Assembly: GCA_964583685.1 (NCBI GenBank)
Contig: CAZOVJ010000001.1
Coordinates: 327,632 to 391,631 of the forward strand
Origin: an uncultured Gammaproteobacteria bacterium
Lineage (GTDB): Bacteria; Patescibacteriota; Microgenomatia; UBA8517
Length of the DNA stretch: 64,000 bases
Direction of reading: 5' to 3'
Below are positions 39,001-45,000 of this stretch, one piece after another. Every line of letters starts with the position of its first letter. The first letter of the stretch is position 1. A program made the position numbers.

Positions 39001-42000
39001 TGGCTTTAGTAATATCGCTTTTTGAAATATCAATTCCGACGATGTCAACACCCTTCTCCAAAAGTGGAATTAAAAGAATGCCGGTATTACAACCTATATC
39101 TAACACTTTCTTCCCGGAGTAATCAATCTTATTCAGCCAAAAAGATATCCGGCTGCGATGGAAAACTCTCTCAAAAATATTCCCTCTATGCATTGCTTCA
39201 TCCAGATCATAACCAAATCCGTCTGATCTGGCTGCCTTAGAAATTTTCTGCTTTGTCATAGCTGAATCTAGATTACCATCATCCTCTTCTGCCTTCAAGA
39301 AACTTGCGCGATGAACTGGCTGAATGTATCCTAAGAAAGTAAATTACAGACCCAGAGAGAAAAATGAAACTTAAAAAAATCCTTTTTAATAATTTTCCTT
39401 TGGTCCTGATTCTCCTGCTCCTTAATATTTGGACCTGGAAGCACATTCCCTCTTTACAATTCCAGGGTGAGGGAGCCTTTTATTTTCTGGAATTTAAATG
39501 TGATCTAGGTCCATTTTTCCCCGTTCCTGCAGTAGAATCAGAAAGACTGGCCCGGATTATCTTCCATTTTTTACCTCAATGGTTTGGGGACAGGATGTTT
39601 CTTTATATGTCCTTTTTGTTCGCAGTCATGCTGCTCATGGATTTAATCATCTATCTCCTGACGCAAGTCATTAGTAAGAGCAAACTAGTAGCTTTTTTAA
39701 CAACCCTATTCTGTAGCTTGAACTATATGGGCAGTTTCAACATGTTTTCTCAGGGCGGTTACCAATGGTTCGTCCAAAGGGCAATCTTGCTTCCCTTTGT
39801 ACTTTTAGCCTTCTCTCTGCTTGTCTTACACTTCCGTCGGGGCTTTTGGAGCTACTATATCTTCTCATTATTACTCTATCTCTTCACCATTAGAATGGGC
39901 TTTTATGGGACAATGTTTTTACCACTCTTTATCTTCTATCCCCTTTTCTATGTAATTTCCCATATTCGAGAAAGAAGGAGGTTTTTAAAAACCTTTTGGA
40001 CTTTTTTGCCGTTTTTAGTAGGAAACTTGTTCATAATCAGGAACGATCCGAATGCTTGTACTGGGCCAGCTTGTGTTGGGAACAATTTCCTTACTGCTTT
40101 CTTTGCTTTTGTTTCCAAAATTCCCGATACTCTCTCTGGCATGACCCAGCAATTGTCGGTAATGACTCTACCCCTTTATTGGGAAAAGGGGCTCTGGAAA
40201 TTTTTAGATATAGAACTCGGCTGGCAATTATCAAAAAATGCACAAATTCTTCTGGCTCAGATAATAGTAACTCTACTTTATTTTGCTGCCTTCCTGGTTA
40301 TCAGAAAGTTACGGCCAGACTGGAAAGTTCTGGCTTGGACTTCACTTTTAGCTCTAGTTTCAATGTTAATCTTCAATGACTATATCACCTGGATACCTTC
40401 GCGCTCATTCGAGAGTCTGCGTTTCTTTTACTTTCCATCTACCATGCTTTCCTTATTCTGGGGTCTCTTTTTCGCTGCCATCCTTTTTCAAAGAAAATTA
40501 CTTCTCAAAATAGTCTGCCTCATTCTCCTTCTTCTCTGGACCGGCTATAACATTAATACCATCCAAAGAGCGGTTAAAGAAGACGCTTGGAGGCATAAGG
40601 CAAACAAAGAAATTCTAGAAACTATCAAACAAAAATCTCCTATTTTAAAAGAAAAGCCCTATTTACTCTTTTTCCCAGGTTCCCTGAATACATTTGGTGG
40701 CTACGGCCTACACTTTGCCCAGCGTTTTTACGGCCACCCGGACTCGCGCTTTGATTTTCACGCTCCCAATCTTGCTAAATTAGCTAAAGAAGGCGTCAGT
40801 CCGGAGACAATCTATGTTTTTCGATTTGATCATCAAACCAGAACAATTATAGATGAGACAGAATCCTCACGTCTGTTGCTCAAACAACTCGAACTAGAAC
40901 TAAACTTTAAATGACAACTTCTAAGAATATTTTAGAAATTAAGAATTTAAAAGCCTCTTGCGGCGGGAAAGAAATTTTGAAAGGCATCAACCTAAAAATT
41001 AAAACAGGTGAAATCTTAACTGTTTTCGGTCCTAATGGCTCTGGAAAAACTGCTTTGTTAAACACCATTTTGGGCATAAATGGATTCACAGTCTCTAGTG
41101 GTAAAATTCTTTTTCAAAATGCAGACATTAGACACCTATCTACAGATCGAAAAGCAAGAAAAGGGATTGCCCTCATGTTCCAAAAACCTGCCAAGGTTCC
41201 AGGTGTCAAGCTTCTAGATTTATTAAAGTTTTTAGAAACAGACAAACAAGTATTAAATAAAAAAATCCAAGCTCTAGATATGAAAAAACTTATAAATCGA
41301 GAGCTCAACCATAACTTCTCTGGAGGAGAATTGAAACGCTCGGAACTTTTACAAGTTTTGTTGCAAAAAGCAGATCTCTATCTACTAGATGAACCAGATT
41401 CCGGCGTTGACCTGGAGAATATTAAACTCATCGCTAAACAACTTAATAGTCTGATTAAAAGCAAAAGGAAAAGCGCCCTAATAATAACCCATACTGGAAA
41501 TATATTGGACTATCTTAAAACAGATAGGGCCTGTGTTTTGATTGATGGCAAAATTTGCTGCGAGGGCCAACCTAGAACTATCCTGGAAACAATAAAAAAA
41601 TACGGCTATGAAAAATGCCTGTCATGCAAAAAATAAACTTTCTAAAAAAAATCAAACTTAAATATTTTTCCCGAGCTAATCGAAATAAAATCCGCTCAAC
41701 AGGTTTTGATCTTAATTTAAAGCAAAAAACCAGTTATTTCTTCCTCAGGGATATGAATCCTGGGTGCTCCTTAATCGACCAAGGGGGTATTGAGATTTTA
41801 AATATCAATCTTGCCTTAGAAAAATACAAATGGCTGAAGAACTACTACGGCAAATTAATCAAATCCAAGAATCCCTCTCAAGGCTACTTTGTCCGCTCCT
41901 TGGCCGGGCAAAAAATAGATAATCCCGTTCAACTCTGCCTTTATATCGCCGCTAATCAACTTCAGCAAAATTTACATAACATCATCATTGCCGAAAAGAA

Positions 42001-45000
42001 TTCACGCTTAAACATTATCACTGGTTGCCTAACCGCTAACTCCGTTGCTGAGGCGAAGCACATTGGCATTACTGAAATTTATTTAAAAGAAGGAGCTCAA
42101 GTCATTTATAATATGATTCATAACTGGGAAAAGGGAGTAATTGTCAGAGCAAGAGCGGCTACCCAGGTAGGGGAAAATGCTTCCCTTGTTTCCAATTATC
42201 TCTGCCTCGCCCCGGTTAAAGACCTGCAAATATCTCCTGTGTGTTATTTAGAAGGAAAAAATAGCCGGGCAAAATATAATTCATTAGTCTATGCTCATCC
42301 AAATTCAAAATTAGATATAGGAACTGAAGTTTTTCTCAACGGAAAAGGTACAAAAAGCGAAGTTACAAATAAATCTATAAGCAATGAAGGAATAATTTAT
42401 GCCAGAGGTCACCTTATCGGTGCTGCCCCCAAAATCAAGGCTCATTTGGATTGTAAGGGCTTAATTGTTTCCAAAAAAGGCAACATCCATGCTCTTCCTG
42501 AACTGGAAGCACAGCTATCCGAAGTGGAAATGACCCATGAAGCAGCGGTGGGCAAAATATCCCAAGAGGCAATAGAATATTTGATGGCCAGAGGTCTAAG
42601 CAGGAAAAAGGCTATATCAGTAATCATCAGAGGATTCGCTGATATCTCCACCATGGTTTTACCAAAAAGGATCCAAAAAGAGATAGAAGGTTTCAATATA
42701 GGGGAATGAAGAAAATTGTTCTGGTCAGACCAAATTATCAAAGTCACATCATCACTCCGCCTCTAGGACTGGGTTATCTTTCCTCTTATTTAAAACAACA
42801 TAAAATTGAAACTAAAATCGTCGACGGCCTCAGGGATAATTTAGAGACAAAAATCTTATTAAAAAAGATTCTGGTTGAAAAACCAGATGCTGTCGGCATC
42901 ACTTGTCTGACTGCTTTTTACAACGAAGCGGTTAAACTTTGCCGGCGAATCAAGAGAAAGAAAATTAGATGCGTTATCGGCGGCGTTCACCCCACCTTTC
43001 TTCCCTACCAAACCCTTGAGGATTCAAGGGCGGATTTTGTCATCTGTGGAGAAGGAGAAATTGCTTTTTTAAAACTCATCAAGTCCAATTTTATTAATAA
43101 AAAAATTCCCGGTGTTTACTCCTTGGATAACCTGAAAAAAACCACACCTATTAAAAAGGCAAAAGCCGTTACCGATCTTGATAAGCTACCTTTTCCGGAC
43201 TGGGAACAAATAGACCCAAACACTTACCCTAAAGCACCCCACGGAGCAATTGTTAAAAATTTCCCAGTGGGCGTGATTATGAGCACCCGCGGTTGTCCCT
43301 ATATGTGCTCATTCTGTGCGAGCCCAAAATTTTATGATCGAAAAATCAGATTCAGGTCACCAAAAAATGTCATCAGGGAAGTGGAATATCTAGCCAAAAA
43401 TTTTGGGGTCAAAGAAATTCATTTTGAAGATGACAATCTGACTTTGCAAAGGGAACATGTAGTAAAAATCTGCCGCTTAATAATCAGAAGCAAAATTAAA
43501 ATTAGCTGGGCTTGTCCTAATGGGGTTCGGGCCGACAAGATAGATGAAAAATTACTAAGATTGATGAAGAAAAGTGGTTGCTATTATTTGGCTTTCGGCA
43601 TTGAATCGGCCAATCCCCAAATATTAAAGAATGTCCATAAATTAGAAAGTATTGAAACAATACAAAAGGCAATTGAAATTACCAACAATGTTGGGGTTCA
43701 GGCTCAAGGGTTCTTTATCTTCGGTCTTCCTGGAGAAAATAAAGACACGATTGAAGAAAGTATCCAATTTGCCAAGAGATCAAAATTGTCAAGAGCTCAA
43801 TTTATTCTCCTAGATGTTATTCCTGGTTCTGAGCTTTGGGACACATTAAAGGGGAAATTTAAGCCAAATTGGAAGAAAAATAGCTATAAAGAACCCGAAT
43901 GGATTCCAAAAGGTTTGACAAAAAAATATCTGATGGAGGCCCAGTCAAAAGCCTTCCGCGAATTCTACCTCCGGCCAATTATTTTTTTGAGGATGGCCAA
44001 ATCTATCCGTCCTAAACAAATAAATTTTTTATGGCAAAGAATTAGGGAATACCGCATTTTCCAATGAAAACCAAATTTTACAAATCTCAGGTAATTGAGA
44101 ACCAAAAACTCAACTATAAGTTTCGTCATCTCCGCTTCAAACTTAAAGATAAAGGTTTTTCCTTTAAAGCCGGCCAGTTCCTGATTATCAAGATTTCAGA
44201 ATCTGTTTTCCGGCCCTATTCCATTGCCTCTATCCCCAAAAATCTGCCTTATTGGGAGCTCCTAATTGATATTTCTCCGGCTGGACCAGGCAGTCAATTT
44301 TTAAAAAAATTAAAACCAGGAGAAATTGTTGAAACAAGCAGTGCCAAAGGGAACTTAACTTTAAAAGATGATAAAAGCAACAACCTTATCTTTGTTGCTA
44401 CCGGCTGCGGCCTTGCCTCCATTAAGCCAATTATCGAGGAACTTTTAAATCGAAAGAGTCAAAAGAAAATTTATCTTTTCTGGGGACTAAGATATCAAAA
44501 AGATATTTTTTACCAAAAACTTTTAGAAAAATGGAAGAAAGAACAATCAAATTTCCATTATGAAATTATCCTTTCCCAACCAGAAAACGGCTGGCCAGGC
44601 AAAAAAGGGCATGTCAATAAACATGCATTAAAACTTATCAAAAATCTACCTTTAACAAAAACTAGTTGTTATCTTTGTGGTAATCAAAAAATGATTGAAG
44701 AACTCAGACTAGGACTAATGAGGATCGGTTTCCCTGAAAATAAAATTTACTTTGAGAAATACTTTTGATAGAATCAAAGAATGACAAAACCGACCATTAA
44801 AATAAACCGCCCTCTTTGCATCTCTTGTGGTCTTTGCACAAGTCTGGCTCCTAAAACATTTGAACTGGATGAAAAATCAATTAGCAGACTGAAGGCCGGC
44901 CCTTATGATGACATTAAAATTATTCTTGAAGCAGCCAAAAGCTGTCCGGTTGGAGCCATAAAAGTGATTGAAGACTGACCCCCGACTACATTCCCATGGC

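What the first reader, a model, noticed from the sequence alone, without database searches (positions are those of the whole stretch)
39364..44978. Coupled operon: membrane protein, SufC, SufBD, B12-binding radical SAM, FNR-like reductase and ferredoxin inside a glycosylation island
Six plus-strand genes are chained by ATGA start/stop overlaps at 40911, 42706 and 44064 and a 12-bp gap before the ferredoxin. A class B (cobalamin) radical SAM enzyme needs a reduced 4Fe-4S cluster and a reducing system, and here the Fe-S assembly ATPase and scaffold, an FAD/NAD(P) reductase and a ferredoxin sit in the same coupled transcription unit. That looks like a self-sufficient electron-supply and cofactor-loading module. 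It sits among GT-C glycosyltransferases and methyltransferases, so the likely substrate is a sugar or lipid-linked glycan. Known analogies for radical C-methylation are GenK, Fom3 and HpnP. Radical methylation of a surface glycan by a dedicated redox operon is, to my knowledge, not a described system. Caveat: in minimal genomes SufCB(D) may be the only housekeeping Fe-S system, so its position here could be incidental.
Basis: partly seen in the sequence, partly recalled or inferred. Interest (0 to 1): 0.8.

Follow-up and report, generated by a model that had tools for sequence, protein, structure and literature searches.

The report
Glycan radical-SAM gene inside Fe–S/ferredoxin operon
In a probable ultra-small (CPR) bacterium, a sugar-island radical SAM gene is fused into one tightly overlapping operon with what look like the cell's general iron–sulfur assembly genes and a reductase/ferredoxin pair; this is most likely a convenience arrangement in a compact genome, not a private cofactor-loading machine.

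Summary
The six plus-strand genes are real and overlap as described. The one correction is that SufC/SufBD overlap by 13–22 nt, not ATGA. All domain calls hold.

The rSAM belongs to a large, uncharacterised B12-domain family conserved across many phyla. Its usual neighbours are glycan-island genes. Of 80 species-representative loci, none has SufBD or FNR nearby, and three of its closest CPR relatives lack all five partner genes.

SufC–SufBD is a two-gene minimal (SMS-like) scaffold. In related CPR genomes it sits in housekeeping contexts that differ from locus to locus.

Orthologues of the FNR–ferredoxin pair lie beside four different Fe–S assembly gene sets, with or without the rSAM. One pair sits beside a complete SUF operon flanked by ribosomal genes, with no rSAM on the contig.

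An rSAM–(FNR)–Fd unit does recur in at least five other related loci, with the rSAM stop overlapping the FNR start. Sharing of the ferredoxin as the rSAM's reductant is therefore plausible.

Methylation is unproven. The best profile hits are the non-methylases BchE and HpnJ, and the best fold match is the sugar dehydratase AprD4.

Moderately interesting: a new variant of known kinds.

The parts
39299..39363 (.). 65-nt intergenic region between the divergent methyltransferase gene (38612-39298, minus strand) and the first gene of the operon; presumed promoter region
   Evidence: ORF coordinates and sequence. No significant promoter consensus. No ArsR-operator-like palindrome of the kind seen in related loci. 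The promoter role is inferred only.
39364..40914 (+). 516-aa multi-pass membrane protein of unknown family; a glycan-island gene, possibly GT-C-like
   Evidence: No Pfam or NCBIfam hit, even at E<=5. Its only clear homologue (43% identity, L095 16084-17691) lies among GT2 genes of a glycan island. hhalign against the window's PMT_2 proteins gives only 69% probability. ATGA overlap with SufC.
40911..41636 (+). SufC/SmsC-type ABC ATPase of the Fe-S scaffold, with a Cys-rich C-terminal tail (C208, C216, C217, C236-L-S-C239)
   Evidence: TIGR01978 SufC 202 bits (cutoff 212.8). PDB matches: T. thermophilus SufC 158 bits, E. coli SufC 141, M. jannaschii SmsC 140. The C-terminal CxxC is absent from the aligned bacterial SufC chains and matches the SmsC cluster-site feature described in PMC12192291. 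It is shared by the CPR SufC in L091.
41615..42709 (+). Single SufB-like scaffold subunit (SufBD family, 364 aa; alternative start at 41624 gives 361 aa)
   Evidence: SUFBD_core 146 bits. Best NCBIfam match is SmsB at 157 bits, far below its 650 cutoff, then SufB at 154. PDB: archaeal-type SufBD 4dn7 at 291 bits against E. coli SufB at 78 bits; HLDCKGL aligns with E. coli FTQCDSM, and THEAAVGKI with EHEATTSRI. Nearest relatives are 48-51% identical CPR proteins, always paired with SufC.
42706..44067 (+). B12-binding-domain radical SAM enzyme (453 aa) of an uncharacterised family associated with glycan islands
   Evidence: PF02310 + PF04055. The CX3CX2C cysteines C197, C201 and C204 are invariant in the family alignment. 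2107 relatives at E<1e-20, 63-74% identical across phyla. AF2 model pLDDT 91. Foldseek matches: AprD4, MgmA, TsrM, OxsB, CysS, TokK. All NCBIfam scores are far below cutoff.
44064..44768 (+). 234-aa FNR-family flavoprotein (NAD(P)H:ferredoxin/flavin reductase type)
   Evidence: FAD_binding_6 + NAD_binding_1. Fre-like NF005963 at 126 bits, below its 230 cutoff. R50-x-Y52-S53 and T113-G114-x-G116 are invariant in the clade alignment. About 20 relatives were found. In the contigs with enough sequence, most sit next to a ferredoxin gene and most lie next to Fe-S assembly genes.
44781..44978 (+). 65-aa single-cluster [4Fe-4S]-type ferredoxin (C13-x2-C16-x2-C19 ... C55-P56)
   Evidence: Fer4_13 and Fer4_15 hits. 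The cysteine pattern is read from the translation. Orthologues at 62-81% identity follow FNR in L093, L095, L097 and L096, and one at 57% follows the rSAM directly in L029.
37273..39298 (.). Usual island partners of the rSAM: an amine-oxidase-like FAD protein (37273-38625, +) and a class I SAM methyltransferase (38612-39298, -)
   Evidence: Pfam. Orthologues at 60-68% identity sit immediately upstream of the rSAM in L083, L086 and L087. A related FAD oxidoreductase is the commonest non-rSAM neighbour in the family, in 28 of 80 loci.

Best explanation
This is a mosaic operon. Two glycan-island genes (the membrane protein and the B12-domain radical SAM enzyme) are interleaved with two general-purpose modules of a probable Patescibacteria (CPR) bacterium. 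The first module is a minimal two-gene Fe-S scaffold, SufC-SufB, of the SMS-like type. The second is an NAD(P)H-dependent FNR-family reductase with a small [4Fe-4S] ferredoxin.

In this bacterial group the primary, recurrent linkage is between FNR-Fd and Fe-S assembly genes of whatever type the genome has. Inferred function: NAD(P)H -> FAD (FNR) -> ferredoxin supplies electrons for Fe-S cluster assembly and other ferredoxin clients, as Fdx/FNR can do for IscS/IscU in vitro.

The rSAM gene has joined this neighbourhood secondarily in some lineages. It is translationally coupled to FNR, so the same reduced ferredoxin probably reduces its [4Fe-4S]2+ cluster for SAM cleavage (inferred), and its apo-protein is made alongside the scaffold.

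The Suf genes are most likely the cell's general, possibly only, SufBC-type scaffold, not a private loader. The rSAM most likely modifies a sugar or lipid-linked glycan, but the chemistry (methylation, dehydration or rearrangement) is undetermined.

Shown: gene content, overlaps, family assignments and comparative contexts. Inferred: co-transcription, electron flow, substrate, and that no second suf locus exists.
For: Structure and families.

rSAM family context: 0/80 species-representative loci have SufBD or FNR within about 10 kb. De novo clustering finds its recurrent neighbours to be extra B12-rSAM paralogues, an FAD oxidoreductase (28 loci), a SPASM-type rSAM, GT2, GT4 and sugar-nucleotide enzymes. 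Three of the closest CPR relatives have methyltransferase|rSAM with nothing in between and no FNR or Fd.

SufCB as housekeeping: the nearest relatives are two-gene units after a ribosomal/rpoA operon and before recA (L091); between PFL and mevalonate genes, with an ArsR-type regulator (L090); or beside an ACS-FNR-POR-Fd operon (L088). The minimal, archaeal-like type is supported.

FNR-Fd linked to Fe-S assembly independently of the rSAM: L114 has Rrf2-SufC-SufB-SufD-SufS-SufU-SufT divergent from FNR-Fd (50% identity), flanked by rplA, rplJ and rplL, with no rSAM in 14 kb. L101 has NifS<-ArsR|FNR. L104 has NifS-NifU...FNR-Fd. L100 has the ArsR-NifS-NifU cassette between the rSAM and FNR.

rSAM linked to Fd: rSAM-FNR-Fd in L093/94/99, L095, L097/103 and L098, and rSAM-Fd in L029.

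Precedent for FNR/Fdx feeding Fe-S assembly: PMC4547094. The window also holds two more rSAM genes (27780-28901, 29959-31410) away from FNR-Fd, which fits a shared reductant better than a private one.
Against: The rest of the source genome (the protein index lists a 484,806-bp contig) could not be read. Whether this is the only SufCB locus, and where any cysteine desulfurase lies, is therefore untested.

Fe-S genes, FNR-Fd and the rSAM co-occur in several arrangements (window, L093-type, L100, L029), so the data cannot fully separate 'FNR-Fd serves Fe-S assembly' from 'FNR-Fd serves the rSAM'. Within the clade at >=45% FNR identity, both neighbours are present in most informative loci.

The ferredoxin is a [4Fe-4S] type, unlike the [2Fe-2S] Fdx of ISC. 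The L088 context suggests FNR-Fd may instead be a fermentative PFOR-linked module. Tight ATGA coupling on both sides of the rSAM is more than a loose neighbourhood. There are no expression or biochemical data.
Confidence: 0.55

Rival explanations
1. One reading: a self-sufficient module in which SufC-SufBD is a dedicated loader of the rSAM's [4Fe-4S] cluster, and FNR-Fd is its private reductase, for radical C-methylation of a surface glycan.
For: Four-base overlaps chain the genes. Fe-S assembly genes of two different kinds neighbour the rSAM-(FNR)-Fd unit in separate lineages: SufCB here, and ArsR-NifS-NifU in L093, L095, L097, L029 and L100. This is hard to ascribe to chance alone. The glycan context is robust.
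Against: 0/80 family loci have SufBD or FNR, and three of the closest relatives lack them. SufCB relatives are housekeeping two-gene units. FNR-Fd occurs beside a full ribosomal-flanked SUF operon with no rSAM, and also alone. Methylase chemistry is unsupported.
Confidence: 0.12
2. Incidental juxtaposition. Genome compaction and frequent rearrangement placed unrelated genes (island genes, Suf, FNR-Fd) in one read-through operon, with no functional link between the rSAM and the others.
For: The linkage is labile. In an NJ tree, the window rSAM does not group with the FNR-linked L093 group, and a third CPR branch lacks the linkage. The closest FNR-Fd relative (75% identity, same metagenome sample as L001) stands alone. 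SufCB contexts differ in every relative. ATGA overlaps appear at three of the five junctions here.
Against: rSAM-(FNR)-Fd recurs in at least five further loci with a conserved overlap between the rSAM stop and the FNR start. In L029 the Fd stays next to the rSAM although FNR is absent. Fe-S genes neighbour the unit in three different arrangements.
Confidence: 0.2
3. FNR-Fd is mainly a fermentative redox module, re-oxidising PFOR-reduced ferredoxin to NAD(P)H. Its proximity to Fe-S genes reflects co-regulation of the cell's main Fe-S client. It would supply electrons neither to cluster assembly nor specifically to the rSAM.
For: In L088 an FNR-like gene (34% identity) lies inside an ACS-FNR-POR-POR-Fd operon next to SufC-SufBD.
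Against: That FNR is only 34% identical to the window's. The clade at >=45% identity never shows POR or ACS neighbours in the loci examined. The window itself has no POR.
Confidence: 0.1

Closest known systems
SMS (SmsCB) / minimal SufB2C2 Fe-S scaffold of methanogens and Thermococcus (PMC12192291, PMC12442378, PMC12584684)
   Same: A two-gene ATPase + single SufB-like unit, with no SufD, SufS, SufE or SufA in the operon. The SufB-like protein is far closer to the archaeal-type 4dn7 than to E. coli SufB. The ATPase has a Cys-rich C-terminal tail with CxxC, like the SmsC cluster site.
   Different: Bacterial (probable CPR) host. The NCBIfam SmsB score is far below cutoff (157 vs 650). M. jannaschii C218 is not positionally conserved. 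The ATPase scores as well against bacterial SufC as against SmsC. Related CPR genomes do carry a cysteine desulfurase + NifU pair, whereas M. jannaschii has none. Here the pair is embedded in an operon with non-Fe-S genes.
ISC-type electron donation: ferredoxin + ferredoxin-NADP reductase + NADPH feeding IscS/IscU (PMC4547094)
   Same: A reductase/ferredoxin pair genomically associated with a cysteine desulfurase and U-type scaffold (L093, L095, L097, L100, L101, L104) or with SUF/SufCB (L114, the window). The same logical role is available.
   Different: The ferredoxin here is a small single [4Fe-4S] type, not the [2Fe-2S] Fdx. The reductase is a 234-aa Fre/FNR-like protein. The association is with SUF-, SMS- and NifS/NifU-type loci. 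The function is inferred from context only.
Cobalamin-dependent (class B) radical SAM enzymes: BchE, HpnJ, PhpK, MgmA, TsrM, OxsB, TokK, CysS, and the B12-domain-like AprD4
   Same: An N-terminal B12-binding-type Rossmann domain, a CX3CX2C radical SAM barrel and a helical C-terminal domain. AprD4 and HpnJ also act on sugars.
   Different: 16-20% identity to any solved structure. Every curated NCBIfam model scores far below cutoff (best: BchE 182 vs 481). It is an un-curated subfamily whose members are 63-74% identical across phyla. Cobalamin binding and the reaction type are untested. None of the characterised examples looked at here was seen with a co-operonic Fe-S scaffold plus FNR-Fd.
NifB with its partner ferredoxin FdxN in nif clusters (from my own knowledge; not checked here)
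   Same: A radical SAM enzyme encoded next to a small ferredoxin thought to act as its electron donor, close to Fe-S assembly genes (NifU/NifS).
   Different: Different rSAM family and pathway (FeMo-co rather than glycan). No FNR-type reductase is coupled. The comparison is by analogy only.

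Membership tests
Canonical SUF system (SufBC2D with SufS/SufE or SufU, and SufA) | SufC ABC ATPase | tested here: met
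   TIGR01978 at 202 bits (cutoff 212.8, marginally below) and strong PDB SufC matches.
Canonical SUF system (SufBC2D with SufS/SufE or SufU, and SufA) | Separate SufB and SufD paralogues | tested here: not met
   Only one SUFBD_core gene is in the operon and in the whole 64-kb window. L114 shows what a canonical CPR SUF operon looks like.
Canonical SUF system (SufBC2D with SufS/SufE or SufU, and SufA) | Cysteine desulfurase, sulfur-transfer protein and carrier in the locus | tested here: not met
   tblastn with NifS, NifU and ArsR queries found no hit in the window. Pfam annotation found no Aminotran_5 desulfurase, NifU_N or carrier. Elsewhere in the genome: not testable.
SMS (SmsCB) minimal system | Two-gene ATPase + single SufB-like scaffold operon | tested here: met
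   SufC-SufBD overlap each other and are always paired in relatives.
SMS (SmsCB) minimal system | Cys-rich flexible C-terminal region of the ATPase, with a CxxC motif | tested here: met
   C208, C216, C217 and C236-x-x-C239 are present. The motif is absent from the aligned T. thermophilus and E. coli SufC chains. The feature is defined in PMC12192291. M. jannaschii C218 is not positionally conserved.
SMS (SmsCB) minimal system | Curated SmsB model (NF052511) at or above cutoff | tested here: not met
   157 bits against a cutoff of 650, so it is SMS-like and not a certified member.
SMS (SmsCB) minimal system | SufB-type cluster-ligand positions (E. coli C405 and the H433/E434 region) | tested here: met
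   HLDCKGL aligns with FTQCDSM, and THEAAVGKI with EHEATTSRI. The residue numbering is from my own knowledge.
Class B cobalamin-dependent radical SAM methylases (GenK, Fom3, HpnP/R, TokK and others) | CX3CX2C radical SAM core plus an N-terminal B12-binding-type domain | tested here: met
   PF04055 at 97 bits and PF02310 at 68 bits. C197, C201 and C204 are invariant. The fold matches TsrM, OxsB, TokK, CysS and MgmA.
Class B cobalamin-dependent radical SAM methylases (GenK, Fom3, HpnP/R, TokK and others) | Membership of a curated methylase family | tested here: not met
   All NCBIfam hits are far below cutoff. The top two (BchE 182/481, HpnJ 168/578) are non-methylases, and HpnR scores 79/650 (PMC9204698).
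Class B cobalamin-dependent radical SAM methylases (GenK, Fom3, HpnP/R, TokK and others) | Binds cobalamin and transfers a methyl group | not testable with these tools
   The top structural neighbour, AprD4, is a sugar 1,2-diol dehydratase and not a methylase. That AprD4 has a B12-like domain without bound cobalamin is from my own knowledge.
FNR-family NAD(P)H:ferredoxin/flavin reductases | FAD_binding_6 + NAD_binding_1 with the RxYS and GxG nucleotide motifs | tested here: met
   (R50, Y52, S53, T113, G114, G116 invariant). The Fre equivalog cutoff is not reached (126 vs 230).
Single-cluster [4Fe-4S] ferredoxins | CxxCxxC...CP cysteine pattern and a Fer4_13/15 match | tested here: met
   C13, C16, C19 and C55-P56. 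Fer4_13 at 47.7 bits and Fer4_15 at 46.1 bits.
   Suf: 0 of 80 loci and absent in the closest relatives examined. FNR-Fd: conserved with the rSAM only in a CPR subgroup, and also found without it. The narrower rSAM-Fd link is met in about six loci.

The most novel reading that the evidence does not exclude
In a subgroup of Patescibacteria, a small FNR-type reductase plus [4Fe-4S] ferredoxin is a so-far unrecognised electron-donor accessory of Fe-S assembly loci of every type present (SMS-like SufCB, NifS/NifU, full SUF). A glycan-modifying B12-domain radical SAM enzyme has been wired into that locus, so that it is matured and reduced on site. This would be a genomic 'redox hub' that also gives a candidate physiological reductant for SUF/SMS-type assembly.
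Probability: 0.25. Interest if true: 0.6.

Novelty: new variant of a known kind. Interest (0 to 1): 0.4.

Why it matters
Three points would matter if the inferred links hold.

1. It offers a concrete candidate, FNR plus a [4Fe-4S] ferredoxin, for the electron supply of minimal SUF/SMS-type Fe-S assembly. The SMS paper read here identifies no electron donor or carrier for that system. The candidate sits beside a full SUF operon in one genome, so it could be cloned and tested.

2. It suggests a physiological reductant for radical SAM enzymes in these bacteria.

3. It flags a very widespread and unusually conserved B12-domain rSAM family of unknown chemistry: 63–74% identity across many bacterial phyla and about 50% in DPANN archaea. 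The family is consistently embedded in cell-surface glycan islands.

It also serves as a caution. Tight operon coupling in compact genomes does not show that housekeeping genes are dedicated to their neighbour.

Tried and rejected
- **Shared regulator site.** ArsR-adjacent intergenic regions in L090, L093, L095, L097 and L100 share an AATCTATA element, palindromic in L090. The window has no such palindrome, and single-motif counts are at chance level. No shared Fe–S regulon can be claimed for the window.
- **Promoter/terminator scan of 38500–45400.** Counts are at background level, so the scan says nothing about transcription units.
- **Classifying the membrane protein.** No Pfam hit even at E<=5. 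hhalign against the window's PMT_2 proteins gives only 69% probability. No usable alignment for structure prediction was allowed, so GT-C membership is left open.
- **Organism name and source genome.** The listing of cluster members gave no names or accessions. The 484,806-bp source contig could not be read, so the 'second suf locus' test could not be run.
- **Viral-contig scan with the FNR profile.** Nothing found.
- **B12-rSAM near FNR–Fd in L113.** Considered as another case of linkage and rejected: it is a different paralogue (31% identity).
- **More distant FNR relatives (L105–L112, 29–35% identity).** These sit in unrelated contexts, such as thioredoxin-reductase-like + glutamate dehydrogenase. 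They were excluded from the argument.
- **rSAM as part of Fe–S metabolism.** Rejected, because its family context is glycan biosynthesis in 80 genomes.

Full report
**Observation.** The window holds six consecutive plus-strand ORFs at exactly the reported coordinates. The junction sequences show ATGA stop/start overlaps at 40911, 42706 and 44064, and a 12-nt spacer before the ferredoxin gene. The SufC/SufBD junction is a 22-nt overlap from the first ATG, or 13 nt from the second, and is not ATGA.

Pfam and NCBIfam confirm the domain assignments:
- a SufC-type ABC ATPase (TIGR01978, 202 bits; cutoff 212.8);
- a single SUFBD_core protein;
- a B12-binding + Radical_SAM protein;
- an FAD_binding_6 + NAD_binding_1 reductase;
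- a Fer4_13/15 single-cluster ferredoxin.

The 516-aa membrane protein matches no family. The same gene order is found on two independent metagenome contigs. The whole 64-kb window is a glycosylation island, with no tRNA or Rfam element. Promoter and terminator scans are at background level, so co-transcription rests on the overlaps alone.

**The radical SAM enzyme and its normal company.** The rSAM has 2107 relatives at E<1e-20. They are 63–74% identical in CPR Microgenomates (Blackburnbacteria, Daviesbacteria), Planctomycetota, Elusimicrobia, Omnitrophota, Cloacimonadota, Melainabacteria and Desulfobacterota. Woesearchaeota relatives are about 50% identical.

I fetched 80 species-representative genome loci with up to 10 kb of flank each. 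None has a SufBD or FNR homologue, SufC hits are only generic ABC ATPases, and two have an adjacent ferredoxin. De novo clustering of the neighbours shows what really travels with the family: extra B12-rSAM paralogues, an amine-oxidase-like FAD protein (28 loci), a SPASM-type rSAM (15), GDP-mannose-dehydratase-like enzymes (15), GT2 (14), GT4 and DegT.

Three of the closest CPR relatives (70–73% identity) have a syntenic island. Its order is F5/8-type-C protein, flavoprotein, PMT_2, flavoprotein, a divergent methyltransferase, this rSAM, and in two of the three a second B12-rSAM. The rSAM follows the methyltransferase or flavoprotein directly, and none of the five partner genes is present. In the window, the membrane protein, SufC and SufBD therefore occupy a position that is empty in those relatives. 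FNR–Fd replace the second B12-rSAM, which here lies at 29959–31410.

**The Suf genes.** The nearest SufBD relatives are only 48–51% identical, are from CPR bacteria, and are always paired with SufC. Their contexts differ between loci and are housekeeping in character:
- after the rpsM–rpsK–rpsD–rpoA–rplQ–rplM–rpsI genes and before recA (L091);
- behind an ArsR-type regulator, between PFL and mevalonate genes (L090);
- next to an ACS–FNR–POR–Fd operon (L088).

The scaffold protein matches the archaeal-type SufBD structure 4dn7 at 291 bits, against 78 bits for E. coli SufB. It keeps the SufB-type Cys and His-Glu positions. The ATPase carries a Cys-rich C-terminal tail ending in C236-L-S-C239. 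That tail is absent from the bacterial SufC structures aligned and present in another CPR SufC. It corresponds to the feature that PMC12192291 identifies as the [4Fe-4S] site of SmsC.

The pair is therefore a minimal, SMS-like SufCB system, although the curated SmsB model is not reached (157 vs 650 bits). No desulfurase, U-type scaffold or carrier is in the window.

**The reductase and ferredoxin.** The FNR has only about 20 detectable relatives. Their contexts are the most informative result.
- **L093/94/99, L095, L097/103 and L098:** the orthologous rSAM (66–69% identity) is followed by FNR (55–56%), with the rSAM stop overlapping the FNR start, and then by Fd. Divergently upstream lies ArsR–cysteine desulfurase–NifU.
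- **L029:** the same layout without FNR, so rSAM–Fd directly.
- **L100:** the ArsR–NifS–NifU cassette lies between the rSAM and FNR.
- **L101:** NifS←ArsR | FNR.
- **L104:** NifS–NifU lie about 1.6 kb upstream of FNR–Fd.
- **L114:** FNR–Fd (50% identity) are divergent from a complete Rrf2–SufC–SufB–SufD–SufS–SufU–SufT operon flanked by rplA, rplJ and rplL. There is no rSAM in 14 kb, and those Suf proteins are only 27–36% identical to the window's.
- **L096:** the closest FNR–Fd relative (75% and 81% identity), from the same metagenome sample as the window-identical contig L001, stands alone.

So FNR–Fd lie beside four different kinds of Fe–S assembly gene sets, with or without the rSAM. The rSAM, in turn, is linked to Fd in about six loci. 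In an NJ tree of the CPR rSAMs, the window sequence does not group with the FNR-linked L093 group, and a third branch lacks the linkage. The linkage is therefore evolutionarily labile.

**Interpretation.** The most economical reading is a mosaic operon. Two island genes (the membrane protein, whose one clear homologue lies among GT2 genes in L095, and the rSAM) are interleaved with the organism's general SufCB scaffold and with a reductase/ferredoxin pair. In this bacterial group that pair is primarily associated with Fe–S assembly loci.

The pair plausibly supplies electrons from NAD(P)H for cluster assembly, as Fdx/FNR/NADPH can do for IscS/IscU (PMC4547094). It may also reduce the rSAM cluster. 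Both roles are inferences.

Two other rSAM genes in the window (27780–28901, 29959–31410) have no such partners, which fits a shared reductant.

**Chemistry of the rSAM.** The AF2 model is confident (pLDDT 91). Its nearest solved folds are AprD4 (a sugar 1,2-diol dehydratase; TM 0.77), then MgmA, TsrM, OxsB, CysS and TokK, at 16–20% identity. The best curated profiles are BchE and HpnJ, both far below cutoff, and both are non-methylases according to PMC9204698. The enzyme has the class-B-type architecture. Cobalamin binding and methyl transfer are untested, and a sugar rearrangement or dehydration is as defensible as methylation.

**Limits.** I could not read the rest of the source genome, so the decisive 'second suf locus' test is open. 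Within the FNR clade, the rSAM and Fe–S genes are often both present, so their effects are partly confounded. No expression or biochemical data exist. A search for a shared ArsR-type operator in the window was negative.

**Verdict.** The locus is a new variant built from known kinds of parts, and is moderately interesting for three reasons: the recurrent Fe–S-assembly/FNR–Fd linkage in CPR bacteria, the rSAM–Fd coupling, and the large uncharacterised glycan-island rSAM family.

Noticed in passing
window 29959-31410 (+) and 27780-28901 (-): Two more radical SAM genes lie in the same island. One is a second B12-binding rSAM (37% identical to the one studied); its orthologue (73%) sits immediately downstream of the rSAM in L083 and L086. 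The other is a 373-aa Fer4_12-type rSAM. Neither has FNR, Fd or Suf neighbours here.
   Followed up: partly
window 42706-44067; loci L003-L082: The rSAM family is unusually conserved across distant phyla (63-74% identity in many bacterial phyla, about 50% in Woesearchaeota/DPANN). This suggests strong constraint and/or horizontal spread of a glycan-modification cassette among anaerobes and ultra-small cells. Its function is unknown.
   Followed up: partly
window 37273-38625 (+) and 38612-39298 (-): An amine-oxidase-like FAD protein and a class I methyltransferase are the conserved immediate partners of the rSAM in CPR relatives. A related FAD oxidoreductase neighbours the family in 28 of 80 genomes. 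No function is assigned.
   Followed up: partly
window 41520-41636 (SufC C-terminus): SufC ends with a Cys-rich tail (C208, C216, C217, C236-x-x-C239), like the [4Fe-4S]-binding C-terminal region described for archaeal SmsC. The same CxxC tail occurs in the CPR SufC of L091 but not in that of L088.
   Followed up: yes
L090 5420-5443; L093 8590-8610; L095, L097, L100 and L101 intergenic regions: ArsR-type regulators next to Fe-S genes share an AATCTATA element, a perfect palindrome (ATATAGAT-TATT-ATCTATAT) in L090. It is a candidate operator of a CPR Fe-S regulon. It is not present in the window.
   Followed up: partly
L029 (record labelled 'uncultured Gammaproteobacteria', 290-kb contig): This locus carries the CPR-type synteny NifU<-NifS<-ArsR | rSAM->Fd, with 60-79% identity to the L093 proteins. 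The taxonomic label of the bin looks doubtful. FNR is missing between the rSAM and Fd.
   Followed up: partly
L088 1477-7219: A CPR-like contig has an operon of ADP-forming acetyl-CoA synthetase, an FNR-like protein, two POR subunits and a ferredoxin, divergent from SufC-SufBD. This is a compact fermentative redox unit next to the Fe-S scaffold genes.
   Followed up: no
window 8738-11344 (-), 11560-13470 (+), 17036-18316 (+), 20766-23861 (-): Four large ORFs (868, 636, 426 and 1031 aa) inside the island have no Pfam match at E<=1e-4.
   Followed up: no
window 47415-47930 (+) and 59781-60347 (-): Two DUF5667 proteins. Homologues recur in the syntenic CPR islands (L083, L086, L087), so they appear to belong to the island.
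   Followed up: no
window 18298-20007 (-) and 53845-55359 (-): A carbamoyltransferase (NodU/CmcH type) and a fused GT2-methyltransferase suggest that the glycan is carbamoylated and methylated by conventional enzymes as well.
   Followed up: no
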